From: an uncultured Ignavibacteriales bacterium
GTDB taxonomy: Bacteria; Zixibacteria; MSB-5A5; GN15; FEB-12
Assembly (NCBI GenBank): GCA_964540105.1
Contig: CAZILL010000002.1
Span: forward strand, 811,705 to 875,704
Direction of reading: 5' to 3'
Length of the DNA stretch: 64,000 nucleotides
Numbering within the stretch: position 1 is the first letter of the stretch; the number at the start of each line of letters is the position of its first letter. The notes below the pieces were generated by a model. The model was not told the origin of the DNA and made no database searches. It saw only the letters and a program-made list of their open reading frames with translations. Positions 32,025-54,968 of this stretch are shown here, one piece after another. The translations under genes and the position numbers were made by a program.

Positions 32025-32165
32025 TTCTCATGTGGCGAATCATGACACTGCCAGTGCACCTTGGGCTCAATTACCATCGCCGCCGTATCAAAGATCACAC
32101 CTAAGATACTCTCTTTTCTCAGCGGTCGCAGAGCATTCCGTACGCGTGAAAGAAAGGAGAAATCG

Positions 32166-33569: not shown

Positions 33570-33583
33570 GGTGAAAGGTGAAT

Positions 33584-34174
33584 ATGCGCGCGTTCTATAT
33601 CGCTTCTTCCGTTGTCCTGCTTTCCTTTGTGGTTGGCGCCGGATGTATCAAAATCCAAACCGGATCTCAGACTGCGGACGAAGCTAAAGAGTCATCGGAG
33701 GTACGAGCCAAAGAATTCCAGGTGCAATGGGCCACGCGCCTGCAGGCGGCGCCACCGCTCGAGAAAATCAGTTTGGTGAGGACCCTCATGGATTCAGTCG
33801 CGGCCAGCTACTTCCGATATGGGCGAAGTGTCTCTGAGCAGTGGCGGCAGGGATCCTCCGGACGCGGAAAACCAATCGAAGACACAGAAATGCAAGCGAC
33901 AGTCCAACGCTGGAATGAGGCCCAGAAGCCGGTGATGAAGGGATATGATGCCGTGGTCGAAAACGGGATTGATCAAATCAAGCAGAGTGGGGTTTTCGAC
34001 GAGCGAGTCCTCACTAAACTCCTGCAGCTTCGGGACAACTTCTTCAGGGTCTGCGATGCCGTCTTCTTTCCGACTGGGAATCCGGACAGCTACGACGAGA
34101 AACTCGGGTCGCTCAGCCGCGACAACGCCCGATTCAGCTCGGAACTTGAACAGGAGGTGAGGCGTTTTCAGTAG
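33584..34174 (+). CDS. hypothetical lipoprotein
   Basis: It has a signal sequence with a lipobox-like VVGAGC. The rest is helical and charged. No family is recognised. Confidence 0.5.
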   Translation: MRAFYIASSVVLLSFVVGAGCIKIQTGSQTADEAKESSEVRAKEFQVQWATRLQAAPPLEKISLVRTLMDSVAASYFRYGRSVSEQWRQGSSGRGKPIEDTEMQATVQRWNEAQKPVMKGYDAVVENGIDQIKQSGVFDERVLTKLLQLRDNFFRVCDAVFFPTGNPDSYDEKLGSLSRDNARFSSELEQEVRRFQ

Positions 34175-34393: not shown

Positions 34394-34422
34394 TTGACAA
34401 TTGCGCGGGAACTTATTATTAT
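34394..34422 (+). promoter_or_regulatory. candidate sigma70-type promoter of the PorU/PorV envelope operon
   Basis: TTGACA (34394-34399), a 17-nt spacer, then TATTAT (34417-34422). It sits in the largest (333 nt) and most AT-rich intergenic region of the window, about 85 nt upstream of the 34508 start. Confidence 0.3.
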
Positions 34423-34507: not shown

Positions 34508-37500
34508 TTGAATCGACCACTTGGCCGTGCAATAGGTTGCTCCGATCGAAAGCCGCATTCTCTTCAGAATCCGGGAAGAGGTGAATTTTGTCTCTTCCTG
34601 TACGTCTTAACACTTCTTACACTTATTTCTTCCCAGTCCGTCAGGGCCTTGGGATCTCCGGTAGAATTGCTGTCATCGACCGCGCAGGGGGTTCGTTTCA
34701 AGGTAATTGTATCGGCCGACTTGACGGGTCTTGACCAGATCCGATCCGGCGGCTCGGTCATCGCCTGTGTGAAGACCGTGCAGGTTGCCATCCCTTCGGG
34801 GGCCTCGGCTCGAATCGTGAGCGCAACAAAACGTCTTCCGATGCCAATCGCAGTCGATGCGCTAAACGGCGAAGGGCTGTCGCTTCGCAATCTCCCTTTG
34901 GCTTCCCTTTCGCACCCGCTTGAAATCCGAGGCCGCGAGTTTGTGGCTGTTCAAATAAGCCCGATTCTCTCGGGAGAAGTTTATCAGGAGGTCGAAGTTA
35001 CTTTGGCTCTTGACGGCGGGCTGAAGCTGGCCGATGGCATCATCACGCCTGATCCCCTCTTTGAGCGCATGCTCAGGAATTCCGTGATCAACGCTGAGAA
35101 CATGATCGCCTGGCCCCAGCTGGTGCCGTCAGTAGGTTCGGATAAGATCGCCAAGCCAGAGCAGGGTCCTTTCTCTCGCAGCGATACCTGGTACAAGATC
35201 GCCATCGACCAGTCAGGTCTGTGCCGAATTACGGGCGCAGAGCTCGAGGGCGCGGGACTGTCGCTTGCCGATCTCCAGTCTGATTCTATCCGAGTTTTCT
35301 CTGGCGGGGGGCTGCCGCTTGAGATGCTGAATTCACGCCCAAGGCCCGAACTGAATGAGATTGCAATTAGGGTGGAGGATGGTGGTGACGGCTTATTTGG
35401 TAAGTCAGACCAGATTCTCTTCTACGGTGAGGCGGTGAATCGCTGGATCTACCGAGCCGATTCAGCTCCAAGGTTTGTCTCGAACCCCTACACACCCAAC
35501 AATATTTACTGGCTGACGGTCTCAGGCGACTACCCCGCGCCAAGGATCAGGATGCAGGATGTTGACGGATCCCTCGGCGGTGCAATCGACACGACAATCT
35601 CGAGTTGCTGGAGTCAGGTCCATGTCGAGCAGGATCACCTTCTGATGCAGGATGGTGATAGTCACGTCGACAATTTCTACACGTGGTACTGGAGCGACAG
35701 CACGAGGGTGTCTTTCTTCTTCGGCGCCCCGGGAGCCATTTCTTCCGACTCAGCCCGGATCACTGTAGTCGGTCGAACCGGATATCCGTTCATAGAACTC
35801 GATGTCAATCAAGTACGAGCGGTCCGGGACAGCGCTGATTCCTATCGCTGTTCAATGACTTCGCGGAGTCTTATCAACGGGCTCAACCAGGTCACAGTGT
35901 CTCTGTCTCCCATTTCGAGGGCTGTTTCTCCTTACTTGGACAATCTTGAGTGTTCGTATCATCGCCAGCTTGTTCCGGAGAACGACCGCCTCGACATCGC
36001 TCTCGGCGAGGCACGTGGTCGCGGCCGTATCCAGATCGCTGATGATTTCGTCTCGCGCCCTATCATTCTGGAGGTATCGAATCCGCTCCACCCGAAGGAA
36101 GTCACCGGTGCTGTCTCAAGCAACGGAGTCCTGTCGTTCGACGCAGATCTTCTTGCCGAGAACGCCAATCGCTTCTACTGCGCAAGTCGGTCAGCAGCTG
36201 TAAAGCCGGTTTCGATTACGCAGGCTCACCCATCCGATCTGCGAGCCGCTTCGAGTCAGACTGACCTGATTATAATCACCCCGAAGAGCTTTACAAGCGC
36301 TTTGGGGGAATACACGGCCTATCGGAGCGCCCAGGGTTACGCGATCAGGATAGTCGCGATAGAAGATGTCATGGATAACTTCTCGTTCGGGCTCTTTGAT
36401 CCGACCGCCATTCGTGATTTCCTGAAATATGCTTATGAAAACCGCATCGCCTATCCGGCCCCTATTCCCTCGGCTGTCCTTTTCGTTGGGGATGCAAACT
36501 ACGATTTTCTCAATCACTTGGAGACTTCTGTTCCGAATCTCGTGCCGACGTACATCAACCCAATGGAAGTCAGTTCAATTGGCAATACGTATGGAGACGA
36601 CAATTACGTGTATTTCGGAAAGTACGGGATTCTCGATAGCGACACCAGTCGCACAAAGCTCCGCGATCGTGGGTATGACATGATGACAGCACGCTGGCCG
36701 GTCAAGAGCGTTAGCGAAATTGCTATGATTACGAAGAAGATCAAGACCTATGAATCGGCTGCGAACCTCGGGGCGTGGCGCAATGCCGTAACTCTGGTAG
36801 CCGATGACGAATTTGGCGCGGAGAGTGACGAGACCTACCACACCACCCAGACGGAAACGCTGGAGCAGGCACACCTTCCCCGCAATTTCAATCGCACTAA
36901 GATCTATCTGTGGGATTACCCGTTTGTCAATCGACAGAAGCCCGCCGTGAATGACGCTATTGTCGAGGCGTTCAACGCCGGCAGCCTTCTGGTCAACTAT
37001 GTCGGTCACGGCAATCCTGATGTCTGGTCGCATGAACATGTCTTCACCCGGACGAGCGACCTGAGCCGACTGAATAATAACAATCTTCCGTTAGTGATTG
37101 CCGCTTCCTGCGCGATTGGTTTCTTTGATGATCCTCGTCGAGAGTCAATGGGTGAAGACTTGCTGAGCATGGCCCATGGGGCGATCGGCGTCATCTCCGC
37201 CATGCGGCTGGTCTTCTCCTATGACAACGCTCAGCTGAATCGACAGATCTACGACTACATGATGTCCGACAAGTCTCTCACCATCGGCGAGTCGTTGTTT
37301 CTCGCCAAAATGACACGCCAGTATGGAGGCGGTTCAATTCCGCAGCAGATCCAGAATGATCGCGGCTATGCGTACTTCGGCGATCCTTACTTGCGGCTTG
37401 GTCAGCCGGTTCTGAACGTTAGCTTCGATCCCTTTCGGGATAGCCTCACGGCGCTGAAGAAGATGTCGATCACTGGCTCCGTCACGGATCACAGCGGCGC

Positions 37501-38476
37501 TCCGGTCGGATTTGACGGCACTCTGAAGGTTACTGTTTTCGATTCCGAGCGTCACCGCGTTCATCGCCTCCTCAACTCCGGAGGGGCAGTCGTTCAGAGC
37601 GTTCCGTACAATCTCCCTGGACCGACGATTTTCCGCGGCAGCGCGCCGATCAACGACGGACGCTTCAGTTTCGATTTCATCGCCCCGCTCGATATCGGGT
37701 ATGGCGGGCAAGGGGCCAGGATCTCCGCCTACGCTGTCCTTGACACCGTGGACGCGGCAGGGGTTGCCGATTCTATCCCGGTATCTTCGGCTGTAGCCCC
37801 GACAACCGATTCAAGCGGCCCGGCGATCAGTTTCTCAGTCGGTGATCGCGCCAATATGGTTGGTGGCGAGACCGTTGGACTTAACGAAGTGTTGCAACTG
37901 ACTATCAGCGACTCTTCGGGAGTCAATCTCGCCGGAGGTCTTGCCCATGGGATCACCCTGGAGGTCGATGAACGAGCCGACAAGATGATCAACGTGACCG
38001 ACTTATTCGCCTACGAAGTGGGCACCTACGCTGTGGGGCACTTGCAGTATTCGCTGTCGGAGCTTGAGCCGGGCGAACATCAGTTCAAGATCAAGGCCTG
38101 GGACAACGCCAACAATTCATCGTCGGTTCAGTTTTCTCTCAAACTAACAGCGCAGCAACATCTGGCGATCATTGATCTGTTAAACTATCCGAATCCGATG
38201 TCAGCTCAGACGACTTTCTACTTCGAGCTGACCGATCAGGCCACGCGCTTTAGCCTGGAAATTTTTACCCTTTCGGGCAAAAAAATCAAGACCTATGTCA
38301 GGCAGGGTTTGGCTGCCGATAATTATCCAAATAACGACTATTCGATAGTCTGGGACGGCCATGACGCCGTCGGGGATCGAGTAGCCAGTGGAGTCTATAT
38401 CTACAAGGCCACAGCACAACCACTTCAGGGTGGAAGGTCGGTAGAGTCGTTTGGGAAAGTTGTTGTTATTAACTAA
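34508..38476 (+). CDS. porU: peptidase C25 (gingipain-fold) protein with T9SS C-terminal sorting domain; PorU-like sortase candidate
   Basis: 1322 aa with a signal peptide. The C25 catalytic dyad context is VNYVGHGNPDVW (His codon 37007-37009) and LPLVIAASCAIGFFD (Cys codon 37109-37111). The C-terminal ~98 aa (38180-38473) are a T9SS type-A/FlgD-Ig-like CTD: LLNYPNPMSAQTTFYFEL...LEIFTLSGKKIKTY...WDGHDAVGDRVASGVYIYKA. A PorV-family gene follows directly, matching the Bacteroidetes porU-porV synteny. The start codon (TTG 34508) is uncertain. Confidence 0.75.
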   Translation: MNRPLGRAIGCSDRKPHSLQNPGRGEFCLFLYVLTLLTLISSQSVRALGSPVELLSSTAQGVRFKVIVSADLTGLDQIRSGGSVIACVKTVQVAIPSGASARIVSATKRLPMPIAVDALNGEGLSLRNLPLASLSHPLEIRGREFVAVQISPILSGEVYQEVEVTLALDGGLKLADGIITPDPLFERMLRNSVINAENMIAWPQLVPSVGSDKIAKPEQGPFSRSDTWYKIAIDQSGLCRITGAELEGAGLSLADLQSDSIRVFSGGGLPLEMLNSRPRPELNEIAIRVEDGGDGLFGKSDQILFYGEAVNRWIYRADSAPRFVSNPYTPNNIYWLTVSGDYPAPRIRMQDVDGSLGGAIDTTISSCWSQVHVEQDHLLMQDGDSHVDNFYTWYWSDSTRVSFFFGAPGAISSDSARITVVGRTGYPFIELDVNQVRAVRDSADSYRCSMTSRSLINGLNQVTVSLSPISRAVSPYLDNLECSYHRQLVPENDRLDIALGEARGRGRIQIADDFVSRPIILEVSNPLHPKEVTGAVSSNGVLSFDADLLAENANRFYCASRSAAVKPVSITQAHPSDLRAASSQTDLIIITPKSFTSALGEYTAYRSAQGYAIRIVAIEDVMDNFSFGLFDPTAIRDFLKYAYENRIAYPAPIPSAVLFVGDANYDFLNHLETSVPNLVPTYINPMEVSSIGNTYGDDNYVYFGKYGILDSDTSRTKLRDRGYDMMTARWPVKSVSEIAMITKKIKTYESAANLGAWRNAVTLVADDEFGAESDETYHTTQTETLEQAHLPRNFNRTKIYLWDYPFVNRQKPAVNDAIVEAFNAGSLLVNYVGHGNPDVWSHEHVFTRTSDLSRLNNNNLPLVIAASCAIGFFDDPRRESMGEDLLSMAHGAIGVISAMRLVFSYDNAQLNRQIYDYMMSDKSLTIGESLFLAKMTRQYGGGSIPQQIQNDRGYAYFGDPYLRLGQPVLNVSFDPFRDSLTALKKMSITGSVTDHSGAPVGFDGTLKVTVFDSERHRVHRLLNSGGAVVQSVPYNLPGPTIFRGSAPINDGRFSFDFIAPLDIGYGGQGARISAYAVLDTVDAAGVADSIPVSSAVAPTTDSSGPAISFSVGDRANMVGGETVGLNEVLQLTISDSSGVNLAGGLAHGITLEVDERADKMINVTDLFAYEVGTYAVGHLQYSLSELEPGEHQFKIKAWDNANNSSSVQFSLKLTAQQHLAIIDLLNYPNPMSAQTTFYFELTDQATRFSLEIFTLSGKKIKTYVRQGLAADNYPNNDYSIVWDGHDAVGDRVASGVYIYKATAQPLQGGRSVESFGKVVVIN

Positions 38477-38494
38477 TAATTCGTGGAGAACTTG

Positions 38495-41086
38495 ATGAAA
38501 GCAAAACTCGCTGTCCTTGCCCTGCTTGGATGCAGTCTCATCTTGACTGCGACTCAGGATGCGCGCGCCTCGATCTCACAGGCTGCCTGCCTGTTCCTAC
38601 GCATCGCTCCCGGTGCACGGGCGGCCGGTATGGGGGAGGCCTTTGTGGCGATTGCCGATGATGCCACCGCCACCCATTGGAATCCGGCCGGCCTTGGGGC
38701 TTACCCGCTGGCAAGCTCGTGGGTGTCGTCCAGAATTCCGGCCCAGTTTCGTCCAATCTCGCACATGGCGGTCTTGAAAGCGCGCTCTGGAAGCAACTAC
38801 CTGGCATATGATGTCTGGGCGGTCACACCCCAGGGACTTGCTCGTTACGACAACAAGAACTGGAATCTCGGAGAAGTGTTCAACACCCGAACCGATCAGA
38901 CCGTCGCGGGAATCGTCTCGAAGTATTTCAACGTCTCCGATGACGAAACATTGGCGCGCATACTGAACCGAGTCGCCGTTGTCAACAATCGCGGCACACA
39001 CAAGAGCCTGGTTGACCTTCGCGATAGCGTCATGACCGTAGTCCCCGCCGATTACAGCGGTAATGAGTCTCTGAAGAACGGCTTTGACACACTCCTCTCG
39101 AGCTACGTGCAGTGTCGACTCAACTGGGAGAAAGTGCAGGAGATACGGGATCTATTTTCCGGAGCTATGCGGGACAGTGCGCTGACGGCCAAGGAAGCCG
39201 ACAAGATTAACTTCGCCGTTGAGCAGACGCAAACACGCTTCATCCCCGAGACCATCACCCTTCCGTATCAGGTCATTCTGGAGGGGGACATCACCTCCCT
39301 GGCCTCGAACGGTGAGATTCTCCTGGTCGGTACGACCCAGGGATTAATCCGCTATACAGGACGCGTGTGGCAGACCATTACGACGGACGAAGGTTTACCG
39401 TCAAACAACATCACCTGTCTCGAGCCTGCCGGAACCGCCACGTTCATAGGGACGGACAACGGCCTCGCTCGCTTCAATGGCCTGACGGCCGAGAAACTCG
39501 ACTCGACCTCCGGCGCTCCGGCCGGTCGGGTGGCCGCTCTCGGAGCGCGGTCGTCGAATGACGTTTATGCCGTGGTTGATCAGGAAATCTACAACTACGA
39601 TGGAAAGCGCTGGTCATCGGGCTACCGTTACACGGTCGCTCTGGATGAGACTCCCGAGACAATTGCTCGAAAATTCGCACTGTACGGGACCGCTTTGGAA
39701 GCGGAGCTTTACATCAAGAAACTCTCGGCGCTCAATCCGCAGCTTCCGGCGACGAACCTTACCCTGAAGCCCGGAGACACGATTCTTGTGCCGTTTGTTG
39801 CCAAGCTCAACAGTCCCGTGAATGCCTTGGCCGCAGGGCTGAATGGAACAGTGTGGCTCGGGACAGATCATGGTGTCATGTACAACCAGGATGGTCTGTG
39901 GGGAATTCCGGGATATCGAATTGACACCCTCGTTCAGAACCAGTCAGTGGACGACTTAGTCGCAAGCCGGGGAGCAGTCGATTCCGCCGCCGCACTGAAG
40001 TATGCCGAGGCGCTTCGGATCATCAATAACCTCTCGTCAGATTCCATGCATGGCGGCGAAGCCGTGGCCGTGTACAAGAACCCGGCGGCGTCGGCGGTAC
40101 ACCGAATAGCGCTGCGCAACGACCGAGTGTACTTTGGCACCGACGATGGTCTTCTTGAATTCGATGGCGTCGAATGGGGTCGTTCTGACTTGTACGATCT
40201 CGGCAGCAAACCCAGCTCAAGCCTGTCCATCGTGCAGGATGAATACTGGTTTGCCGGTCCCGACAAACTGGTGACGAGGGCGAATGGACGTCCCGAGATC
40301 TCCCTCATGTACGTAAAGTGGTTGCCGGCGCTGGCCAGCGATCTCTATTACGCGTACTCTTCGTTTGTCAAGAGCACGGAGACATGGGGTACGTTCGGTG
40401 GAAACGTGACCTTCATATCCTACGGCAAGTTCAGCCGGACGGCCGAAGGTACCCCGACAGTGGTCGGTACGTTCGAATCGTTCGAAACGGCGATTACGGG
40501 TTCCTATGGGACTTCGGTCTCCCGAAACCTCTCGCTGGGCATCTCGGCCAAGCTCATCTATTCAAAACTCGCGGATGCCGGAGCCGGAATCGAGCGCGGC
40601 AAAGGGACAGCGACTGATTTTGCCGTCGATCTGGGACTCCTCTACAGGGTCTTCCCACAATTGAACGTCGGGATTTCTCTGACCAACCTGGGGCCCAAGA
40701 TCTCGTACATCGACGCCGCTCAGTCGGATCATCTCCCGCGCAATCTGGCGGTTGGGCTCGCCTATAAGATCATTCAATCCGAGTACAATCGATTGACTCT
40801 CGCTGCTGATGTGAACAAGATTCTGGTCGGGCTCGATCAGAACGTAAAGCTCAGCAAGTCCCTAAATGATGTTGTAATCAATACGGGTCTCGAATACACG
40901 TACGCCAATCTCATATCAGCCCGCGGCGGGTATATCTACGATAATGAAGGAAAGATCAAGGTGTTCACTCTTGGAGCCGGACTGAATCTTCTTGATCGTT
41001 TCCGGTTTGACTTTGCGTATATTCCGAGCCAGAGCAATTCGGCGCTGTCGAACATATTGAGGACATCAATTTCTGTCTGGCCGTAA
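38495..41086 (+). CDS. porV: PorV/PorQ-family outer-membrane beta-barrel protein with a ~525-aa insertion (beta-propeller-like repeats plus LysM-like segment)
   Basis: After the signal peptide comes the PorV-family opening RIAPGARAAGMGEAFVAIADDATATHWNPAGLG. The last ~260 aa have alternating-hydrophobic barrel strands with PorV-like motifs (DFAVDLGLLYR, LPRNLAVGLAYK, INTGLEYTYANLISARGGYIYD, FTLGAGLNL..FRFDFAYIP). Between them lie Reg_prop-like repeats (GLIRYTGRVWQTITTDEGLPSNNITCL; VWLGTDHGVMYNQDGLW; RVYFGTDDGLLEFDGVEWG) and a LysM-like stretch. Confidence 0.7.
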   Translation: MKAKLAVLALLGCSLILTATQDARASISQAACLFLRIAPGARAAGMGEAFVAIADDATATHWNPAGLGAYPLASSWVSSRIPAQFRPISHMAVLKARSGSNYLAYDVWAVTPQGLARYDNKNWNLGEVFNTRTDQTVAGIVSKYFNVSDDETLARILNRVAVVNNRGTHKSLVDLRDSVMTVVPADYSGNESLKNGFDTLLSSYVQCRLNWEKVQEIRDLFSGAMRDSALTAKEADKINFAVEQTQTRFIPETITLPYQVILEGDITSLASNGEILLVGTTQGLIRYTGRVWQTITTDEGLPSNNITCLEPAGTATFIGTDNGLARFNGLTAEKLDSTSGAPAGRVAALGARSSNDVYAVVDQEIYNYDGKRWSSGYRYTVALDETPETIARKFALYGTALEAELYIKKLSALNPQLPATNLTLKPGDTILVPFVAKLNSPVNALAAGLNGTVWLGTDHGVMYNQDGLWGIPGYRIDTLVQNQSVDDLVASRGAVDSAAALKYAEALRIINNLSSDSMHGGEAVAVYKNPAASAVHRIALRNDRVYFGTDDGLLEFDGVEWGRSDLYDLGSKPSSSLSIVQDEYWFAGPDKLVTRANGRPEISLMYVKWLPALASDLYYAYSSFVKSTETWGTFGGNVTFISYGKFSRTAEGTPTVVGTFESFETAITGSYGTSVSRNLSLGISAKLIYSKLADAGAGIERGKGTATDFAVDLGLLYRVFPQLNVGISLTNLGPKISYIDAAQSDHLPRNLAVGLAYKIIQSEYNRLTLAADVNKILVGLDQNVKLSKSLNDVVINTGLEYTYANLISARGGYIYDNEGKIKVFTLGAGLNLLDRFRFDFAYIPSQSNSALSNILRTSISVWP

Positions 41087-41108: not shown

Positions 41109-44100
41109 GTGAGTTGCACACATAGGACGATTGTGCTCACACTGGTCATCGGCCTTGTCGTTGCGATGTCGGCGGAGGCCGAAGACAAAGTATGGGTCGG
41201 TAGACGCAGCGTTACGCCACCAACCGAGGGGCAGAACGATGTCGTTCATCGCTGCCTTACCCCCAGCATAGGGGATGTCAACTCCTCGACCTCTACTCGC
41301 AAGGCTCAATGGTCTCTGCCGGAACAGGCTTTGTCGACGTCATTTGACACTATCATCCGGGTACTTGTCCTGCGTTTCGATTTTCAGTATGAGGAGCAGG
41401 ACGACCCGAACAGTACTGGACGCGGGCGCATGGATCTTTCACGCCCTCTCGCCAATGCGGTCGATTCGGCCAGATATTTTGATACGATCGGGCATTGGAT
41501 CGATCCACCACCACACGATTCCGCTTATTTCAGCTCCCACATGCGCGCGCTCAATCTGTATTGGTTGCAGGTCTCACAGGGGCGATACCACCTGGTGTGG
41601 GACATCTTCCCGAAGCGCAACGACTCGCTCTACACGCTGCCCCACCCGATGAGTTATTACGGTCGTTGTCCGTTCGATTCAGTCGTGGTCGGTCTCGAGG
41701 AGTTTTTCAAGGATTGCATCCATGGTGCGGACTCAAGTCCTGAGATCGACTTCTCGCGCTACCAGGCGATCGTGATCTTCCACGCCGGTTCTGATCGCCA
41801 AAACGACATCGGATTCCCTCAGACCTGCGCTGATCTCTTCACGGGATTCATTAAGTTCAAGGACTCCATCCCGGTCGACGACGGTCGGACTTATATTCGG
41901 AAGGCAGTCATGATGCCTGAGACCGCGTGCCAGGATAATCGCGCCACTGCCCTCAATGCCGTGCTCGCCCATGAATTCGGCCATCAGCTTGGCCTTGTCG
42001 ACCTGTACAACACACGCGGCTTCATGTCTCAGCTGGGGGATTTCTGCCTCATGGATAACAACGGTTTTGGCAGTGGGATCGAATACGAAGGATTTACGGT
42101 CGGCAAGGTGTTTGGAGCGATCCCGGTTTATCCCGATGCTTGGTCGAGAGCCTATCTCGGATTCGACTCGGTTGCTGACTTCCGCCACGGCTCGGACATA
42201 CGGCTGGTGGCGGCCGAGATTGCGTCGCGCGGGCTCAAGATAGCGCGGGTGCCGATCTCCGAAAACGAATACTATCTCATCGAGAATCGGAATATCGACA
42301 CCGACGGCGACACGACGGTCACCCGTGTCGATTCGACCACGAACGTGATCCTCGGACCTGCCAACAAGCGTCGTCAGTTTACCGGAGAATATGACTTTCT
42401 CATGCCGGGCTCGGGGATGTTGATCTATCGCGTGGATGAAGGGGTGGCCGGTCTCGACTACAATGACAATGGCACAAACAACTTCGAGGACAATACCCTT
42501 CAATGGGACCCCAACCGCCGGTTTGTTTCGTTGGTTGAAGCGGACGGCTTTGTGAATTTCGGCGGGTATTATCGCAAGGGGTATGGCGACGTTGGGGATT
42601 GTTTTCGCGATGACCTCGTCACGCGGTTCACCCCCAACACGAATCCTCCGGCGCTCGACAACGGGGGGAACAACACCCATGTCAGCGTGACCGGCATCAC
42701 CCGTGAGCTCTATACCTCACCGGGCAATTCGAAGCCGATTCTTCTCGATAGCGTGATGTTCTTCGACGTCGAAACCGATATGCTGGCCGCGGGCTTCCCG
42801 GTGCGAGCGGGCTACCCGGTCTATCCGTTGTCCTCGATTGTAGATGATCTCGATCGCGACGGCCAACCGGAAGTAATCGCCGCGGCTCGCCGACTGATAA
42901 CCGTTTTCACGACTGCAGGCGAGAACTATCTTCGCAAGCGCACAAATTGCACTACGTGCCCGGAATATGCCGACATTGTCAAGTCAACCATGAGCGCCGG
43001 AACGCCTCGCGTCGTGCCAGCCTTTGCTATTGTCGGGGGAGCGAATGACACAATAACATCAGGTCCGGTCACAGGTGACTTTGCGGAAAAAGGGCTGCTC
43101 AAGTTTGTTGCGGTCGGATATCGCACCGGACCCGCCGCTGGTCGAGTAGTCTTATATGTCCCGACTGACGATAATCGCGACGGGTTGGCAGATCTGGCGA
43201 CAGAAGAGTTCGCAACAGACGGTAAACCAGTAGCCCTGTCGTTCGGGAACATTCTCTATGTGCTCACCGACAAGGGAAAAGTCTATCGACGGGATGGCAT
43301 CCTCGGTGCAACGGTCCTACTGGCGACCATAGACGCGCCCTTATTTCAAGGAATCAGCAGAATCGGCAATCGACTCGTGGTTATGGCCGGGAGCGAGCAA
43401 AACAGCAAACTATTCGTCGTGGGTTCAACACTCGATTCGATTTCCCTCGGTGACAATTTCAGCCTTGGTCCGATCACCGCTGACATGAATCGAGACTCCA
43501 TTCCAGAGGTTGTCTCTTTTACTACCGACGGCGACGGCATCTGTGTAAGCGTCGACACAACGCGCGAGCCGCCGCTGCTTACAGTTCTCGCGCAATCAGC
43601 GAGCGGCTATCACCTGACCGTCAACCCGATTGTGGGCGATGTCGACGATGACGGTCTTCCGGATGCGATCGTAGGTGGGACGAACGCTCTTTACGCTTTC
43701 GACGGCAAACTCGTGCTGAAGAGTAATTTCCCGCTTTCTGTCGATGACCGCTTTCCGTCTTCTGACATTATTGCTTCACCCGTAAGCGCTGACATCTCCC
43801 GGGGCGGCCGCTCTGAGCTGATTTTTCCGAACGATGCCGGCGCAATTCATTCCTATGGCACTTCCTCAGCCGATCTGCCTGCAGCTGTTCAGGTTTACAG
43901 CCGGACGGCCGGCTTCCCGCTCTCAGCAGGCGAGAAAGGGGCAGGCTCGTGCGTTGTATTTGCCGATTCCGCCGGCGGGAAGCTCGGCTACCTGGGCGCC
44001 GATGGATGGTTTTACGCTTGGGAAATAGACCGCGATAGCTCGGCCGACTACTGGCCGATGGGCGGTCACGATCCATCCGGCAGCTTCACTTTTCCTGCGG

Positions 44101-44414
44101 ACAAATTGCACGAACGGAGCGAATACCCGCAGGATTATCTCGGTGGACGGTTCTACAATTATCCAAATCCCGTGACAACGGGATCAACCAATTTTCGATA
44201 CTTCCTGGGGGAGGAGGCTCGACGAGTGACGGTGACTGTGTATGACTTATCTGGTCAGAGGATGGCATCGTTCGATGGGACAAGGGCTGCGGGCGAGAAC
44301 TCTCAGACTTGGAACTGTTCGGACCTGACACCGGGAGTCTATCGATGCCGCCTTGAAGCAACGTTCTCCGGAACCACGAAATCAGTATTCACCGACGTGG
44401 CCATCATCAGATGA
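41109..44414 (+). CDS. M6 (immune-inhibitor-A)-like zinc metalloprotease with FG-GAP/VCBS-like repeats and T9SS C-terminal sorting domain
   Basis: It has a signal peptide and the zinc motif VLAHEFGHQLGLVDLYNT (HEFGH at 41970-41984). FG-GAP-like Ca-binding loops are present (DDLDRDGQPEVI, ADMNRDSIPEVV, GDVDDDGLPDAIVGG). The CTD at 44151-44411 reads FYNYPNPVTTGSTNFRYFL...VTVYDLSGQRM...LTPGVYRCRLEA. Confidence 0.8.
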   Translation: MSCTHRTIVLTLVIGLVVAMSAEAEDKVWVGRRSVTPPTEGQNDVVHRCLTPSIGDVNSSTSTRKAQWSLPEQALSTSFDTIIRVLVLRFDFQYEEQDDPNSTGRGRMDLSRPLANAVDSARYFDTIGHWIDPPPHDSAYFSSHMRALNLYWLQVSQGRYHLVWDIFPKRNDSLYTLPHPMSYYGRCPFDSVVVGLEEFFKDCIHGADSSPEIDFSRYQAIVIFHAGSDRQNDIGFPQTCADLFTGFIKFKDSIPVDDGRTYIRKAVMMPETACQDNRATALNAVLAHEFGHQLGLVDLYNTRGFMSQLGDFCLMDNNGFGSGIEYEGFTVGKVFGAIPVYPDAWSRAYLGFDSVADFRHGSDIRLVAAEIASRGLKIARVPISENEYYLIENRNIDTDGDTTVTRVDSTTNVILGPANKRRQFTGEYDFLMPGSGMLIYRVDEGVAGLDYNDNGTNNFEDNTLQWDPNRRFVSLVEADGFVNFGGYYRKGYGDVGDCFRDDLVTRFTPNTNPPALDNGGNNTHVSVTGITRELYTSPGNSKPILLDSVMFFDVETDMLAAGFPVRAGYPVYPLSSIVDDLDRDGQPEVIAAARRLITVFTTAGENYLRKRTNCTTCPEYADIVKSTMSAGTPRVVPAFAIVGGANDTITSGPVTGDFAEKGLLKFVAVGYRTGPAAGRVVLYVPTDDNRDGLADLATEEFATDGKPVALSFGNILYVLTDKGKVYRRDGILGATVLLATIDAPLFQGISRIGNRLVVMAGSEQNSKLFVVGSTLDSISLGDNFSLGPITADMNRDSIPEVVSFTTDGDGICVSVDTTREPPLLTVLAQSASGYHLTVNPIVGDVDDDGLPDAIVGGTNALYAFDGKLVLKSNFPLSVDDRFPSSDIIASPVSADISRGGRSELIFPNDAGAIHSYGTSSADLPAAVQVYSRTAGFPLSAGEKGAGSCVVFADSAGGKLGYLGADGWFYAWEIDRDSSADYWPMGGHDPSGSFTFPADKLHERSEYPQDYLGGRFYNYPNPVTTGSTNFRYFLGEEARRVTVTVYDLSGQRMASFDGTRAAGENSQTWNCSDLTPGVYRCRLEATFSGTTKSVFTDVAIIR

Positions 44415-45346
44415 GAGGATATCAGATGCGACTTCAGACATGCATGCTTCTTGTGATCTTCGTGTCCTTTGGAACTATTGGGGTTTCCGGCAGGGAACTG
44501 CAGCTAAGTTCGTCTCGCATGTCTCAGGAACTCCTGCAGATGCGCTATCAAGGAGTTCGCATGTTGTCCGAGGAAGAGCCATCGGCGTCAACTCATCAAG
44601 TGGACCAGTCGGAGAGCGTCTCGAATCGATCATCCAAGCAGTGGAAACGCAAGTCCGCCCCGAAAGCGTTCGCCATGTCGTTGGTGATACCCGGCCTCGG
44701 ACAGTTCTACTATGGGAGTCGCGTCAAGGCGGCCCTCTTCTTCGGGGCGGATGTTGCGTTCTGGGCGCTGGCTTCTTCATCGCACAAGAAAGGGAATGAA
44801 CTGACCGACGAGTTCAACGCGTTTAATCGCGCCCACTGGAATCGAGATTCGTACGAACAGAAGTACCTGTTGTGGACCTATGGTTTTGCCGACGACGAAG
44901 AGATCCCGACGGATAAAACCGAAATCAGCCATCATCTTCCGGACACTGAAACACAGCAGTACTTCGAAATGACCGGCAAATACAACCAGTTTGCATGGGG
45001 GTGGGACGACGCCGAATTGAACGGTAAGAAGATAGATGACTACAGCGTGCAGAATCCGCCACTCCGGATTCTGGAACCGGCGTCGACTCCATATTCCCAG
45101 AACCGCCTCACGTATGAAGATATGCGCCACTCCGCGAACAAGAAGTTCGAACAATCTCGAGCCATGATTATGCTGGCAATGGCCAACCGCATCATCAGCA
45201 GCTTCGAGGCGCTCTTCACGGTCAACAGGCACAATCGCGGTCTGGCGCCCGAGCAGCAGTTCAGCAGAGTAGAGGTTCGGGCGTCGCTGAAGTCATACCG
45301 CGCTAAGCGCGACACCCCGTTTCTGAAATTGACATATCGATTCTAA
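44411..45346 (+). CDS. hypothetical envelope protein, PGLGQFY-motif family (DUF5683-like), paralogue 1
   Basis: Its start overlaps the upstream stop (ATGA). It has a signal peptide and the motif KSAPKAFAMSLVIPGLGQFYYGSRVKAALFFGADVAFWA. It is a paralogue of the next gene. Confidence 0.55.
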   Translation: MRGYQMRLQTCMLLVIFVSFGTIGVSGRELQLSSSRMSQELLQMRYQGVRMLSEEEPSASTHQVDQSESVSNRSSKQWKRKSAPKAFAMSLVIPGLGQFYYGSRVKAALFFGADVAFWALASSSHKKGNELTDEFNAFNRAHWNRDSYEQKYLLWTYGFADDEEIPTDKTEISHHLPDTETQQYFEMTGKYNQFAWGWDDAELNGKKIDDYSVQNPPLRILEPASTPYSQNRLTYEDMRHSANKKFEQSRAMIMLAMANRIISSFEALFTVNRHNRGLAPEQQFSRVEVRASLKSYRAKRDTPFLKLTYRF

Positions 45347-45354
45347 GAAAGCGA

Positions 45355-46164
45355 ATGAACTGCACTTCCCTCAAACGCTGGGCGATCATACTGACTGCCA
45401 GTTGCTGCGCCGGATCACTTTACGGACAGGTAAGTTATCCGGCGCTCACCATCCAGGAAGAGTTTCACCAGCGGATGGGAGATCTTAGCCCGCGATTTGC
45501 GGCGCTCTCAGACAGCTCGCGGCGCCCAAGCCAGGCCGTCGGAACAGAGCCCAGCGATGAGGGGACAAGACGCAAGTCTTCCGCAAAGGCGCTTCTGCTC
45601 TCCGCGGTTGTGCCGGGGGCGGGACAGTTCTATCTGGGACAGAGAAGCCGCGCTCGTTTCTTCTTCGCCGGTGAAGCGCTCTCATGGATTGGCTATGCGT
45701 CGTTTCGGCTGTTTGGCCACTGGCGCGAGGAAGACATGATCCGATTTGCCCGCCAGCGCGCGGGAGCAGATTTGAATGGGAAATCCGAACGGTTTCAGGA
45801 CATCGTCGGCTTCTATTGGGACATAGACCAGTACAATTCACTGGGGCGTGCTTATGACCCACAACGCGCATATCTTCCAGACACGCCGGAAAATCACTGG
45901 CGATGGCAGGATCCGGCCGATCAGGTATCGTATCGGCTGCTGAAGAATCGCAGCCGGGGAGCGTTCGATCGAGCCCGACTCATGATCGGCGTTATGGTCG
46001 TCAACCGCGCTCTCAGCGTTATTGACACCTATCGCGAGCTGCGTCATCGAAATTCCCGCAAGGGGCTTTCATCGTCGCTGACCGATCTGGGTAATTATTC
46101 GCTCGATTTCGATCCGTTTGGCCGGAATGATCAGGTGACCCTCACGTGGCGTGCACCGTTCTGA
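45355..46164 (+). CDS. hypothetical envelope protein, PGAGQFY-motif family (DUF5683-like), paralogue 2
   Basis: KSSAKALLLSAVVPGAGQFYLGQRSRARFFFAGEALSWI. The C-terminal FDRARLMIGVMVVNRALSVID matches FEQSRAMIMLAMANRIISSFE in paralogue 1. Confidence 0.55.
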   Translation: MNCTSLKRWAIILTASCCAGSLYGQVSYPALTIQEEFHQRMGDLSPRFAALSDSSRRPSQAVGTEPSDEGTRRKSSAKALLLSAVVPGAGQFYLGQRSRARFFFAGEALSWIGYASFRLFGHWREEDMIRFARQRAGADLNGKSERFQDIVGFYWDIDQYNSLGRAYDPQRAYLPDTPENHWRWQDPADQVSYRLLKNRSRGAFDRARLMIGVMVVNRALSVIDTYRELRHRNSRKGLSSSLTDLGNYSLDFDPFGRNDQVTLTWRAPF

Positions 46165-46166
46165 TC

Positions 46167-47135
46167 ATGCGGCGATCCCCTTTCCCGGCGACGCTCGCCT
46201 TGCTGGCATTGCTTACTCAGTCCTGCACCAAGCCGCCGTCGAAAATAGATCACACCACAGCGCTCACGGTGCGACGACCTGCCGAACTACTTGTAAAGCA
46301 AGTCATCTCCGGCCCTATCCTTGGCATGCAGATGAAGAACCCTTCGGGGCTCGCCGCCGATGATCAAGGTGCACTCTACGTTTGCGACGCGGGCAACAAT
46401 CGAATACTCAAGTTCGGCAGCGATCTGACGCCGGTCAGGGAGTCAGGTGGTTTCGGGAGTGAACCCGGGCTGTTCGGCCAGCCGCGCTTTGTAACAGTCG
46501 ACAACCGCTTGAACCTATGGGTCACCGATCCGGGAAGTCGGCGCGTTGTTCGTCTTGACGCAAACCTCAAGTACGTCGACGAAGTGAACTTGCATGATGA
46601 ACAGGATGCTCTGAAGTACGGCGCTCCCACCGGCGTCGCGTCGTCCATCTACGGCGTCTTGTGGATAGCGGATCGAGAGAAGAGTCGCGTTGCTACGTTT
46701 GATAACGTCGGCCGTTTTGACCGATTTGTTGGCGACTTCGGTTATAGCGGAGGACAGCTTCTCCACCCCGAGAAGATCATCACGGGCCCCGACGACGAGT
46801 ATGTCGTGTGCGATGCCGGCAACCGCAGGATCGTTTTCTACGACAGCTACGGAAACTTCACGAGGACCCTGGAAAATCCCCGATTCGAGTTTCCCGTTGC
46901 CGTCACCGATGATCGCGCCGGGAACCTCTGGATTCTCGATCAGAAGCTCGGTATCCTGAGTCTCTACGATCAGCAAAGACGCTTCGTGCTGGAGCGAGGC
47001 CCGCAATTGAACGGCAACTCGACCGCTCTTCGTGCTCCTTCCGATATTGCAGTGATGTCCGACGGACGGATAGTCATCGCTGATAGTGGCAACAACCGTC
47101 TCGTCGTATGTGAAACAATCTCTGCTGCTCCGTAA
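46167..47135 (+). CDS. NHL-repeat beta-propeller lipoprotein
   Basis: The lipoprotein signal is MRRSPFPATLALLALLTQSC. At least five NHL repeats are present: LYVCDAGNNRILKF, LWVTDPGSRRVVRL, LWIADREKSRVATF, YVVCDAGNRRIVFYD and IVIADSGNNRLVVC. I prefer the ATG at 46167 over the GTG at 46146. Confidence 0.8.
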   Translation: MRRSPFPATLALLALLTQSCTKPPSKIDHTTALTVRRPAELLVKQVISGPILGMQMKNPSGLAADDQGALYVCDAGNNRILKFGSDLTPVRESGGFGSEPGLFGQPRFVTVDNRLNLWVTDPGSRRVVRLDANLKYVDEVNLHDEQDALKYGAPTGVASSIYGVLWIADREKSRVATFDNVGRFDRFVGDFGYSGGQLLHPEKIITGPDDEYVVCDAGNRRIVFYDSYGNFTRTLENPRFEFPVAVTDDRAGNLWILDQKLGILSLYDQQRRFVLERGPQLNGNSTALRAPSDIAVMSDGRIVIADSGNNRLVVCETISAAP

Positions 47136-53951: not shown

Positions 53952-53969
53952 CGATAGAGCGGAGGTGCC

Positions 53970-54959: not shown

Positions 54960-54968
54960 GTCGACGCT

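What the first reader, a model, noticed from the sequence alone, without database searches (positions are those of the whole stretch)
34508..41086. porU-like / porV-like gene pair (T9SS sortase and shuttle candidates) at the head of a long envelope operon
Seen: a 1322-aa C25-fold peptidase has an intact His/Cys dyad context (GHGN at 37007; SCAIG at 37109) and its own T9SS-type CTD. A protein with the PorV/PorQ-family opening (GARAAGMGEAFVAIADDATATHWNPAGLG) and a PorV-like C-terminal barrel follows 6-18 nt later.

Established: in Porphyromonas gingivalis, the C25-family sortase PorU (PG0026) and the shuttle PorV/LptO (PG0027) are adjacent. PorU is unusual in keeping its CTD.

Inference: this is the PorU/PorV attachment module of a T9SS-like pathway. 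No other core T9SS genes (porK/L/M/N, sprA/sov, porT) are recognisable in the window. Either they lie elsewhere, or this lineage uses a reduced or divergent machinery.
Basis: partly seen in the sequence, partly recalled or inferred. Interest (0 to 1): 0.55.

Follow-up and report, generated by a model that had tools for sequence, protein, structure and literature searches.

The report
PorU sortase plus oversized PorV
This is a real type IX secretion sortase gene (porU) next to a double-length porV whose extra half is predicted to be a periplasmic, cell-wall-binding propeller; the pair heads an eight-gene outer-membrane operon that is conserved across the uncultured phylum Zixibacteria and may include a half-size secretion pore.

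Summary
ORF 34508-38476 passes NCBI's curated PorU model (673 bits, cutoff 420). Its His834/Cys868 dyad is invariant in 70 relatives, and it carries a CTD.

ORF 38483-41086 passes the PorV/PorQ family model (241 bits, cutoff 90) but not the PorV equivalog model (178 bits, cutoff 250).

It is a split PorV. A PorV N-terminal motif and a 14-strand barrel are separated by a roughly 530-aa insert, which is present in all 47 aligned relatives. The insert is predicted to be a Reg_prop-type beta-propeller with a helical bundle and a LysM domain. Its position places it in the periplasm.

The lineage is Zixibacteria. The order porU, porV-long, M6 metalloprotease with CTD, two DUF5683 genes, NHL, a 1082-aa barrel and Omp85 recurs across about 80 genomes.

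The 1082-aa protein is predicted to have about 38-40 long beta-strands. 32 of 45 family members weakly hit the SprA/Sov model.

No porK/L/M/N gene lies in the window or near the operon in any genome examined. Whole genomes could not be screened.

Verdict: a real PorU/PorV module containing an undescribed PorV variant. Interest is moderate.

The parts
34394..34422 (+). sigma-70-like promoter candidate (TTGACA-17-TATTAT, 11 of 12) in the 333-nt gap upstream of porU
   Evidence: gap sizes. This is a consensus match only, not proof of function.
34508..38476 (+). porU: T9SS sortase, C25 cysteine peptidase, 1322 aa. Signal peptide about aa 27-48; lineage-specific N-terminal extension aa 50-223; C25 domain aa 588-964; CTD aa 1216-1322.
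   Evidence: NF033707 673 bits (cutoff 420); Pfam C25 276 bits; 6ZA2 E=6e-67; region conservation
37007..37111 (+). catalytic dyad of PorU: His834 codon 37007-37009 and Cys868 codon 37109-37111
   Evidence: Both residues are invariant in 70 of 70 Zixibacteria PorU sequences. They align with the GHG and TC motifs of solved P. gingivalis PorU.
38153..38473 (+). C-terminal T9SS type-A-like sorting domain (CTD) of PorU, aa 1216-1322
   Evidence: aligned to the CTD of 6ZA2; FlgD_ig 28.2 bits (cutoff 27); TIGR04183 22.5 bits (cutoff 23); lineage CTD HMM 127 bits (the window's own CTD was in the training set)
38483..41086 (+). porV-long: PorV/PorQ-family outer-membrane protein, 867 aa (probable start ATG 38495)
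   Evidence: NF033709 241 bits (cutoff 90) and NF033710 177.9 bits (cutoff 250); 6H3I_F E=1.3e-21 in three pieces; AF2 pLDDT 83.9; Foldseek top hits are PorV 8gl6_F and 6h3i_F
38570..38704 (+). PorV N-terminal conserved motif (aa 30-74), the most conserved part of the protein (86% mean identity)
38705..40294 (+). roughly 530-aa insert (aa 75-604): Reg_prop-like beta-propeller with a helical bundle (aa 141-247) and a helical pair (aa 489-514); inferred to be periplasmic
   Evidence: AF2 secondary structure; Foldseek hits to the HTCS periplasmic propellers 3ott, 3va6 and 4a2l; Reg_prop in 16 of 48 members; present in all 47 homologues at 529-653 aa; no PDB sequence match
39620..39802 (+). LysM-like beta-alpha-alpha-beta unit (aa 380-440) nested in the propeller
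   Evidence: Pfam LysM 20.6 bits (cutoff 20.9) here; LysM in 21 of 48 family members, best E=3.9e-10; beta-alpha-alpha-beta pattern E380-384, H391-397, H404-417, E433-437
40295..41083 (+). 14-strand FadL/PorV-type beta-barrel (aa 605-867)
   Evidence: 14 strands with 2-4-residue turns alternating with longer loops; PorV Pfam match aa 605-783; Foldseek TM 0.60 normalised to PorV
41109..44414 (+). M6-like zinc metalloprotease with FG-GAP region and T9SS type-A CTD (aa 1012-1101); HEFGH at nt 41970-41984. Candidate dedicated cargo or processing enzyme.
   Evidence: TIGR04183 31.4 bits (cutoff 23) and NF052323 230 bits (cutoff 600); HEFGH or HEYGH intact in 59 of 60 homologues; follows porV in 72 of 82 loci
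44411..45346 (+). DUF5683-like envelope protein a (311 aa)
   Evidence: PF18935 28 bits (cutoff 26.7); hydrophobic N-terminus and C-terminal ...YRF; conserved position
45355..46164 (+). DUF5683-like envelope protein b (269 aa), paralogue of the previous gene
   Evidence: PF18935 25.2 bits (below cutoff); clusters with the previous gene; C-terminal ...APF
46146..47135 (+). NHL-repeat beta-propeller protein (329 aa), possible lipoprotein (LLTQSC)
   Evidence: PF01436 94 bits; sits next to the barrel gene even in a distant relative (L083)
47148..50396 (+). 1082-aa predicted giant beta-barrel (about 38-40 long strands, aa 138-1081), with a small N-terminal beta domain and two inserted domains. Candidate reduced SprA-like translocon, unproven.
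   Evidence: AF2 pLDDT 84.2, pTM 0.69; Foldseek SprA chains have the highest query-normalised TM (0.25) but all TM values are low; TIGR04189 hit in 32 of 45 members; no Pfam family and 'hypothetical' in nearly all source names (one is called DUF2460 domain-containing)
47904..48146 (+). most conserved block of the barrel family (aa 253-333; G262, QGPY 267-270, R325, D329), which matches SprA model positions 589-654
   Evidence: The same block also weakly hits TIGR02217 (phage distal tail protein).
50400..52043 (+). short Omp85/BamA-TamA-family protein (547 aa), possible dedicated assembly factor for the barrel
   Evidence: PF01103 43 bits; TIGR03303 61.6 bits (cutoff 297); stays with the barrel gene when the operon is split (L087)

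Best explanation
The two genes are the surface-sorting module of a type IX-type secretion pathway in a Zixibacteria genome. Shown: the first gene is a PorU-family C25 sortase with an intact, invariant His/Cys dyad and its own CTD. The second is a PorV/PorQ-family 14-strand barrel. The third is a CTD-bearing M6-like metalloprotease. All three head a tightly packed envelope operon that is conserved across the phylum. Inferred mechanism: Sec exports the proteins to the periplasm. CTD proteins cross the outer membrane through a large barrel. The extracellular loops of PorV bind the CTD and hold PorU at the surface. PorU Cys868/His834 then removes the CTD and probably transfers the cargo to a surface glycolipid. 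What differs from the textbook system is PorV itself. About 530 residues are inserted between its N-terminal motif and barrel strand 1. They form a beta-propeller carrying a helical bundle and a LysM domain, and the insertion point puts them in the periplasm. I infer that this module binds peptidoglycan and/or periplasmic partners, so this PorV is a tethered station rather than a freely diffusing shuttle. It would combine in one chain what P. gingivalis builds from the PorP barrel plus periplasmic PorE (WD40 propeller and OmpA_C peptidoglycan-binding domain). Downstream, the 1082-aa giant barrel with its NHL partner and Omp85 assembly factor is the best candidate in the window for the translocon, at roughly 0.35-0.4 probability.
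For: PorU identity: NF033707 673 bits (cutoff 420) over the full model; 6ZA2 E=6e-67 including the CTD; His834 and Cys868 invariant in 70 of 70. PorV identity: NF033709 241 bits (cutoff 90); 6H3I_F E=1.3e-21; the AF2 model (pLDDT 83.9) has 14 C-terminal strands, and Foldseek's two best PDB hits are PorV chains 8gl6_F (E=2.6e-17, TM 0.60) and 6h3i_F. Insert: confidently modelled; structurally closest to Reg_prop periplasmic sensor propellers; LysM in 21 of 48 and Reg_prop in 16 of 48 members; present in all 47 aligned homologues with many invariant residues. Periplasmic placement: the insert ends 4 residues before strand 1. The alignment to solved PorV puts Asn87 at window residue 619, in the loop after strand 1. 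In the solved structure Asn87 lies in an extracellular loop that contacts the CTD lysine (PMC10994853). Strand 1 therefore runs from periplasm to outside. The 2-4-residue turns alternating with longer loops agree. Precedent for a barrel with a periplasmic propeller and a peptidoglycan binder: the PorE-PorP complex (PMC9143113, PMC12773672). Cargo: the M6 CTD scores 31.4 bits on TIGR04183 (cutoff 23), and HEFGH or HEYGH is intact in 59 of 60 homologues. Operon: promoter-like site and gaps of -19 to +22 nt; gene order conserved in 80 genome loci, including RBG-1. Barrel: about 38-40 long strands; the highest query-normalised TM values are with the largest known barrels (SprA 0.25, SlpA 0.24, MtrB 0.23, against BtuB 0.17); TIGR04189 is the only recurrent family, in 32 of 45 members with best E=1e-11.
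Against: PorV-long misses the PorV equivalog cutoff (177.9 against 250). The N-terminal motif (aa 21-49) is modelled at low confidence. I had no model coordinates, so the propeller's position relative to the barrel is argued from topology, not measured. LysM in this particular protein is 0.3 bits under Pfam's cutoff. For the barrel: its score on the SprA model is 19 bits against a cutoff of 200 and covers only about 65 residues. The same block weakly hits a phage tail family. Neither the family profile nor the block profile reaches F. johnsoniae SprA in the PDB. All Foldseek TM scores are low. In the complete chromosome CP070824.1 the barrel block lies about 1 Mb from porU-porV and stays with UbiA and the Bat genes instead. 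Two genomes lack the barrel and Omp85 at this position (L019, L050). Distant relatives of the barrel stand alone. No porK/L/M/N, porT or porW gene was seen, so the energy source is unknown. Nothing here is experimental.
Confidence: 0.72

Rival explanations
1. This is an ordinary T9SS whose core (SprA/Sov, PorK/L/M/N, PorT, PorW) is encoded elsewhere in the genome. Only porU, porV and the M6 cargo belong to it. The downstream DUF5683, NHL, barrel and Omp85 genes form an unrelated outer-membrane module, for example a large porin or an envelope-biogenesis unit linked to the Bat genes, that merely shares the transcript.
For: The operon splits cleanly into porU-porV(-M6) and DUF5683x2-NHL-barrel-Omp85-UbiA-Bat in the complete chromosome CP070824.1. 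L019 and L050 keep porU through NHL but lack the barrel and Omp85. Distant barrel homologues are not next to por genes. The SprA similarity is short and far below the cutoff.
Against: The full eight-gene order is kept in most of the loci that extend far enough, down to 23-35% identity, including RBG-1. TIGR04189 is the only family that recurs across barrel homologues. A barrel of about 38 strands is otherwise known, as far as I am aware, only from SprA-type translocons (36 strands; PMC10994853).
Confidence: 0.4
2. The insert of PorV-long lies on the cell surface and acts like PorZ, so the protein is in effect a PorQ-PorZ fusion. An outer-membrane barrel would carry a Reg_prop-type propeller that binds the surface glycolipid, with LysM as the glycan binder, and hands it to PorU.
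For: PorZ is built of Reg_prop-like propellers and docks on a PorV/PorQ-family barrel (PMC5121618, PMC12365241). One family member hits PF21544 PorZ_N_b_propeller (E=1.4e-4). LysM domains bind GlcNAc-containing glycans in general (established knowledge).
Against: The insert is joined to strand 1 by only 4 residues. Strand 1 leads outward to the loop that aligns with the CTD-binding extracellular loop of solved PorV (PMC10994853), so the insert is on the periplasmic face. The protein scores much higher on the PorV model (178 bits) than on PorQ (72 bits). PorZ is not among the top 50 Foldseek hits.
Confidence: 0.1
3. The 1322-aa protein is merely a CTD-bearing gingipain-like C25 protease, that is a secreted cargo and not the sortase.
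For: It has a C25 domain and a CTD, as gingipains do.
Against: It scores 673 bits (cutoff 420) over the whole PorU model, including the non-catalytic N- and C-terminal domains. The PDB match to PorU is 6e-67 over about 770 residues, against 1e-6 over about 120 residues for gingipain R. It is next to porV in 81 of 82 loci.
Confidence: 0.02

Closest known systems
PorU (PG0026) of Porphyromonas gingivalis, T9SS sortase, PDB 6ZA2; NCBIfam NF033707
   Same: Matches over the full length of the curated model and above its cutoff. The C25 fold has aligned His/Cys residues, the protein has its own C-terminal CTD, and the gene lies immediately upstream of porV.
   Different: It carries a roughly 170-aa N-terminal extension (aa 50-223) that has no counterpart in P. 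gingivalis PorU and is only 23% conserved within Zixibacteria. The host is outside Bacteroidota. The attachment substrate is unknown, since A-LPS is a P. gingivalis feature.
PorV of Flavobacterium johnsoniae / P. gingivalis (LptO, PG0027), PDB 6H3I chain F and 8GL6 chain F; NCBIfam NF033710 and NF033709
   Same: Same N-terminal motif and the same 14-strand FadL-type barrel. It is the best sequence and fold match in the PDB, and the gene is adjacent to porU.
   Different: It is 867 aa rather than about 390-400. A roughly 530-aa propeller, helical-bundle and LysM module is inserted between PorV residues 64 and 73. It falls below the PorV equivalog cutoff. A peptidoglycan-bound PorV could not shuttle freely between the translocon and the attachment complex.
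PorE-PorP complex of P. gingivalis (PMC9143113, PMC12773672)
   Same: Both combine a 14-strand FadL-family carrier barrel with a periplasmic beta-propeller and a peptidoglycan-binding domain.
   Different: In P. gingivalis these are two proteins, with a WD40 propeller and an OmpA_C domain, and they serve type-B CTD cargo. Here there is one chain, with a Reg_prop-like propeller and LysM on a PorV-type barrel, next to PorU. No sequence homology to PorE was tested or shown; the likeness is architectural and inferred.
SprA/Sov T9SS translocon (36-strand barrel, about 2300-2500 aa; PDB 6H3I chain A; TIGR04189)
   Same: The 1082-aa operon product is predicted to have about 38-40 long strands. SprA chains give its highest query-normalised TM score. 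32 of 45 family members hit TIGR04189 at model positions of about 589-669. In most Zixibacteria it is co-operonic with porU and porV.
   Different: It is less than half the length and scores 19 bits against a cutoff of 200. No profile hit reaches solved SprA. Most loops on both faces are short, so an SprA-like cap is not evident. It is separable from porU-porV in some genomes.
NCBIfam 'PorU2 / PorV2 / T9SS-dependent M6-like inactivated metalloprotease' models (NF052324, NF052325, NF052323)
   Same: The window has the same three kinds of protein side by side: a PorU-like sortase, a PorV-like barrel and an M6-like protease with a CTD. The three window proteins give partial hits to these models of 151, 49 and 231 bits.
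   Different: All three hits are far below the cutoffs of 450, 325 and 600. The window's PorU is a better match to canonical PorU. The M6 HEFGH site is intact here and in 58 of 60 relatives (HEYGH in one more), so the protease is not 'inactivated'. I found no publication on these families; the apparent literature hits were citation-superscript artefacts.

Membership tests
T9SS sortase PorU (NF033707) | Whole-protein score at or above the curated cutoff, with full model coverage | tested here: met
   673.4 bits against a cutoff of 420; model positions 3-1094 of 1095
T9SS sortase PorU (NF033707) | C25 catalytic His/Cys dyad present and aligned with P. gingivalis PorU | tested here: met
   His834 and Cys868; invariant in 70 of 70 relatives
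T9SS sortase PorU (NF033707) | Carries its own C-terminal T9SS CTD | tested here: met
   Aligned to the CTD of 6ZA2; FlgD_ig 28.2 bits (cutoff 27); TIGR04183 22.5 bits (cutoff 23), borderline. Whether the CTD is retained after secretion is not testable here.
T9SS sortase PorU (NF033707) | CTD cleavage and transpeptidation of cargo to a surface glycolipid | not testable with these tools
   Needs biochemistry or genetics
PorV/PorQ family (NF033709) | Score at or above the curated family cutoff | tested here: met
   241 bits against a cutoff of 90; Pfam PF19572 74.5 bits against 27
PorV proper (NF033710 equivalog) | Score at or above the equivalog cutoff | tested here: not met
   177.9 bits against a cutoff of 250; PorQ model 71.8 against 220
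PorV proper (NF033710 equivalog) | 14-strand FadL-type barrel with the conserved N-terminal motif | tested here: met
   14 strands at aa 605-865; best Foldseek hits 8gl6_F and 6h3i_F; N-terminal motif aligned to PorV residues 6-64
PorV proper (NF033710 equivalog) | Single-domain protein of about 390-400 aa | tested here: not met
   867 aa, with a roughly 530-aa insert between PorV residues 64 and 73
PorV proper (NF033710 equivalog) | Binds type-A CTDs, docks on the SprA lateral opening and anchors PorU | not testable with these tools
   Needs co-purification or structural work
SprA/Sov translocon (TIGR04189), for the 1082-aa ORF | Score at or above the curated cutoff | tested here: not met
   19.4 bits against a cutoff of 200, covering about 65 residues only. 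The hit recurs in 32 of 45 members. No hit to solved SprA.
SprA/Sov translocon (TIGR04189), for the 1082-aa ORF | Single barrel of about 36 strands | tested here: inconclusive
   About 38-40 long strands in the DSSP string of a confident model. Foldseek to SprA gave E=1e-7 and TM 0.25.
Complete T9SS (PorK/L/M/N motor and ring, PorT, PorW, PorZ, PorQ) | Core genes present | tested here: not met
   None is in the 64-kb window. No gene family other than the operon's own and its conserved upstream neighbours recurs near the operon in 80 Zixibacteria loci. A whole-genome screen was not possible with these tools, so this row applies to the window and its neighbourhoods only.
T9SS type-A CTD cargo (TIGR04183), for the M6-like protein | C-terminal sorting domain above the cutoff | tested here: met
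   31.4 bits against a cutoff of 23; Pfam PF18962 29.6 bits against 27

The most novel reading that the evidence does not exclude
Zixibacteria run a self-contained, reduced type IX system encoded largely by this one operon. It would comprise a half-size SprA-like pore of about 38 strands with an NHL lipoprotein and its own Omp85 insertase, a peptidoglycan-anchored PorV that stays beside the pore, and PorU. There would be no PorK/L/M/N ring or motor, so cargo release from the pore would not depend on the rotary, proton-motive-force-driven machinery thought to be essential in Bacteroidota.
Probability: 0.18. Interest if true: 0.85.

Novelty: new variant of a known kind. Interest (0 to 1): 0.5.

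Why it matters
T9SS mechanism has been worked out almost entirely in Bacteroidota. There, PorV is pictured as a small mobile carrier that is pulled off the SprA pore by a motor-driven ring (PMC10994853, PMC12365241).

This window shows a phylum-wide PorV whose periplasmic half is a large, conserved propeller with a peptidoglycan-binding-type domain. That is hard to reconcile with free shuttling. It suggests an alternative way to position or energise the carrier.

The same operon offers a compact, predicted giant barrel as a candidate minimal translocon. If confirmed, it would define which parts of the 2300-aa SprA are essential, and it would be a far more tractable target for structural work.

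It also extends PorU/PorV sorting to an uncultured phylum. The held paper library contains no paper that mentions both Zixibacteria and T9SS.

At the level of gene naming, however, public annotation already calls the relatives of the second gene 'PorV/PorQ family protein'. The pair itself is therefore not a discovery.

Tried and rejected
1. Gingipain-like cargo instead of PorU: rejected.
2. Sequence homology of the 1082-aa protein to solved SprA: nothing was found with the single sequence, the family profile, a distant member that scores best on TIGR04189 or a profile of the conserved block alone.
3. Foldseek on the barrel model gave generic TonB-receptor hits with the best E-values, and all TM scores were low, so it is not decisive.
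4. The insert alone against PDB sequences gave nothing.
5. A search for other recurrent neighbours of the operon in 80 loci, as possible hidden T9SS parts, found only tryptophanase, an asparaginase-like gene and a 198-aa protein upstream.
6. A lineage-specific CTD HMM over all window ORFs found only PorU and the M6 protein, so no further cargo lies in the 64 kb.
7. Literature searches for Zixibacteria with T9SS, for DUF5683 and for PorU2/PorV2 found nothing relevant. The 'PorU2' and 'PorV2' hits were citation superscripts.
8. A whole-genome screen for porK/L/M/N, sprA and porT was not possible.
9. The paper by Lauber et al. 2018 (PMC6927815) is not held.
10. One call failed on the residue limit and was repeated with fewer sequences.


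Full report
**1. The observation**

Both ORFs are present at the stated coordinates.
The PorV-type opening is at aa 44-72 of the second ORF.
- The two genes are 6 nt apart, or 18 nt if the ATG at 38495 is the real start.
- A 333-nt gap precedes the first gene. It contains a TTGACA-17-TATTAT site at 34394-34422.
- Nine genes then follow with gaps of -19 to +22 nt.
- The eight products from PorU to Omp85 are all predicted secreted or outer-membrane proteins. Six of them show a recognisable hydrophobic N-terminus.
- 'Head of a long envelope operon' is therefore accurate.

**2. The first gene is PorU**

- It scores 673 bits on NCBI's equivalog-domain model NF033707 (cutoff 420) and covers positions 3-1094 of 1095.
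- It scores 276 bits on Pfam Peptidase_C25.
- Among solved structures it matches P. gingivalis PorU (6ZA2) at 6e-67 over about 770 residues, including the C-terminal sorting domain. Gingipain R matches only at 1e-6 over the catalytic core.
- In an alignment of 70 relatives taken from other genomes, Gly833, His834 and Cys868 are invariant.
- The CTD is borderline on TIGR04183 (22.5 bits, cutoff 23) and passes FlgD_ig (28.2 bits, cutoff 27).
- One difference from the P. gingivalis protein is an N-terminal extension (aa 50-223) that is poorly conserved.

**3. The second gene is a PorV, but not an ordinary one**

- It passes the PorV/PorQ family model (241 bits, cutoff 90).
- It fails the PorV equivalog model (177.9 bits, cutoff 250). 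It is still far closer to PorV than to PorQ (71.8 bits).
- The match to solved F. johnsoniae PorV (6H3I chain F, E=1.3e-21) comes in three pieces: query 13-70 to chain 6-64, query 605-783 to chain 73-259, and query 790-863 to chain 315-391.
- About 530 residues are therefore inserted between PorV residues 64 and 73.

An AlphaFold2 model built on 48 family sequences is confident (pLDDT 83.9, pTM 0.80).
- It shows 14 strands at aa 605-865.
- Before these, at aa 75-600, it shows successive four-strand blades. These are interrupted by a helical bundle (141-247), a beta-alpha-alpha-beta unit (380-437) and a helical pair (489-514).

Foldseek against the PDB ranks two PorV chains first (8gl6_F, E=2.6e-17, TM 0.60 normalised to PorV; 6h3i_F). 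Next come the Reg_prop double propellers of Bacteroides hybrid two-component sensors, then FadL, TodX and TbuX.

Scanning each family member against Pfam gives PorV in 48 of 48, LysM in 21 of 48 (best 3.9e-10) and Reg_prop in 16 of 48. In this particular protein LysM is 0.3 bits under the cutoff.

The insert is present in all 47 aligned homologues at 529-653 aa, with 41% mean identity and many invariant residues. By comparison the N-terminal motif is 86% identical and the barrel 57%. The insert has no sequence match in the PDB.

**4. Which side of the membrane the insert is on**

This step is inference.
- The insert ends four residues before strand 1.
- In the alignment to solved PorV, Asn87 falls at window residue 619, in the loop that follows strand 1.
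- In the solved structure Asn87 belongs to an extracellular loop that contacts the conserved lysine of the cargo CTD (PMC10994853).
- Strand 1 therefore runs from the periplasm outwards, and a domain attached four residues before it is periplasmic.
- The alternation of 2-4-residue turns with longer loops along the 14 strands agrees.

A LysM domain in the periplasm points to peptidoglycan binding.

There is a known precedent for the architecture. P. gingivalis PorE is a periplasmic lipoprotein with a WD40 propeller and an OmpA_C peptidoglycan-binding domain. It binds PorP, a 14-strand FadL-family barrel related to PorV (PMC9143113, PMC12773672). The Zixibacteria protein looks like that arrangement fused into one chain on a PorV-type barrel.

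If so, this PorV is a tethered station rather than a free shuttle. That matters because current models have PorV pulled away from the pore by motor-driven components (PMC10994853, PMC12365241).

**5. Lineage and conservation**

- The closest relatives of the long PorV are 850-980-aa proteins. Where a source names them, they are nearly all from Zixibacteria metagenome-assembled genomes and are called 'PorV/PorQ family protein'. The best identity is 54%.
- A scan of one genome per species returned 80 loci, including the founding RBG-1 genome and several complete chromosomes.
- tblastn with the window's proteins shows the order porU, porV-long, M6 protease, DUF5683, DUF5683, NHL, 1082-aa protein, Omp85 wherever the contig extends far enough. 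Counts out of 82 loci were PorU 81, M6 72, DUF5683a 54, DUF5683b 50, NHL 45, 1082-aa 42 and Omp85 18. The falling counts mainly reflect contig and flank ends.
- Clustering all ORFs of these loci finds no other recurrent neighbour apart from tryptophanase, an asparaginase-like gene and a 198-aa protein upstream.
- porK/L/M/N are therefore not linked to porU-porV in this phylum. None is in the window either.

**6. The other operon genes**

The third gene is an M6-like metalloprotease.
- It has an FG-GAP region and a type-A CTD above the cutoff (TIGR04183 31.4 bits against 23).
- Its HEFGH site is intact here and in 58 of 60 relatives, with HEYGH in one more. This is unlike NCBI's 'inactivated' M6 family, which it hits only partially (230 bits, cutoff 600).
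- It is the only CTD protein in the window besides PorU. It follows porV in 72 of 82 loci, so it is either a dedicated cargo or a processing enzyme of the system.

The two DUF5683-like proteins and the NHL propeller are uncharacterised. No relevant literature exists for DUF5683.

**7. The 1082-aa protein**

Nearly every source calls it hypothetical (one calls a relative 'DUF2460 domain-containing'), and it has no Pfam family.

AlphaFold2 (pLDDT 84.2, pTM 0.69) predicts:
- a signal helix;
- a small beta domain at aa 26-95;
- about 38-40 long strands from aa 138 to the C-terminal Phe, mostly joined by very short turns, with two inserted domains.

Foldseek gives its best E-values to 22-strand TonB-dependent receptors, at TM 0.17. 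The highest query-normalised TM values go to the largest known barrels: SprA 0.25, SlpA 0.24 and MtrB 0.23. All are low.

The window protein's single NCBIfam hit is the SprA/Sov model, at 19 bits over residues 270-333. Across the family, 32 of 45 members hit that model at the same place (best E=1e-11), and no other model recurs. The matched block is the most conserved part of the family.

Evidence against homology with SprA:
- The block is short, and in distant members it also weakly hits a phage tail family.
- Profiles of the family or of the block do not reach solved SprA.

The family is large, with 3,916 cluster representatives at E<=0.001. The 150 best are mostly full-length matches of 1,050-1,230 aa. 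Some distant members stand alone in their genomes, and one keeps the NHL neighbour.

In the complete chromosome CP070824.1 the operon is split.
- porU-porV lies at about 2.03-2.05 Mb.
- DUF5683x2-NHL-barrel-Omp85-UbiA-Bat lies at about 3.07-3.10 Mb.
- Two other genomes lack the barrel and Omp85 at this position (L019 and L050).

I therefore treat the barrel as a candidate reduced translocon, with the adjacent short Omp85 as its likely insertase. I put the probability at roughly 0.35-0.4. This is not a finding.

**8. Comparison and novelty**

- The pair belongs to known families, and automatic annotation already names relatives of the second gene as PorV/PorQ family proteins.
- What appears to be undescribed is the long PorV architecture with its periplasmic propeller and LysM module, its conservation throughout a phylum, and the conserved envelope operon with a giant barrel.
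- The held library has no paper containing both 'Zixibacteria' and 'type IX secretion' or 'T9SS'.
- I file it as a new variant of a known kind.

**9. Limits**

- Nothing here is experimental.
- I could not view model coordinates.
- I could not screen any whole genome for the T9SS core.
- The choice between 'core elsewhere' and 'reduced machinery' therefore remains open.

Noticed in passing
window 52052-52930 (+): The last tightly packed gene of the operon is a UbiA-family prenyltransferase. Its best NCBIfam hits are archaeal-type geranylgeranylglycerol-phosphate geranylgeranyltransferase models (175 and 170 bits, both below cutoff). That is unusual for a bacterium and may be relevant to reports of archaeal-like ether-lipid genes in the FCB group. 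It stays with the barrel, Omp85 and Bat block when the operon is split (L087).
   Followed up: partly
window 53061-62466 (+): A Bat/MoxR-type 'aerotolerance' operon: BatD-like, MoxR AAA_3 ATPase, DUF58/VWA, a TPR protein, an unknown 344-aa ORF, BatA, BatB and a 631-aa BatD protein. It lies directly downstream of the por operon.
   Followed up: no
L075 and L087 (CP070824.1, complete Zixibacteria chromosome): The operon is split into porU-porV at about 2.03-2.05 Mb and DUF5683x2-NHL-barrel-Omp85-UbiA-Bat at about 3.07-3.10 Mb. At the first site the M6 gene appears broken into three ORFs (12451-12990, 13090-13875, 13928-15397) and PorV is only 812 aa.
   Followed up: partly
L019 and L050: In these two Zixibacteria genomes the NHL gene is followed directly by UbiA, BatD and MoxR. 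The 1082-aa barrel and the Omp85 gene are missing together at this position, which suggests they form a sub-module.
   Followed up: no
window 30975-34174 (+) and loci L003-L082: An asparaginase-like gene, tryptophanase and a 198-aa protein with a hydrophobic N-terminus sit upstream of porU. The same is true in 24-37 of the related loci (tryptophanase up to 75% identical). This is unexpectedly stable synteny between amino-acid catabolism genes and the por operon.
   Followed up: no
window 12029-16178 (+) and 6469-7671 (+): A type IV pilus cluster: PilB (693 bits, above cutoff) with an N-terminal MshE-type c-di-GMP-binding motif, then PilT and PilC. A separate 400-aa protein carries the same c-di-GMP-binding motif.
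   Followed up: no
window 34508-35176 (PorU aa 1-223): PorU has a lineage-specific N-terminal extension with no counterpart in P. gingivalis PorU. The only start codon that keeps the signal peptide is the TTG at 34508, whereas one public gene call starts 53 codons later and loses it.
   Followed up: partly
window 47904-48146 (1082-aa protein aa 253-333): The conserved block (QGPYQ ... VWLDG ... DY..G.ITF ... RSRIE.D) hits the SprA model, and in distant family members it also weakly hits TIGR02217, a phage distal tail protein family (DUF2460). One relative is annotated 'DUF2460 domain-containing'. The relationship between these small beta domains is unexplained.
   Followed up: partly
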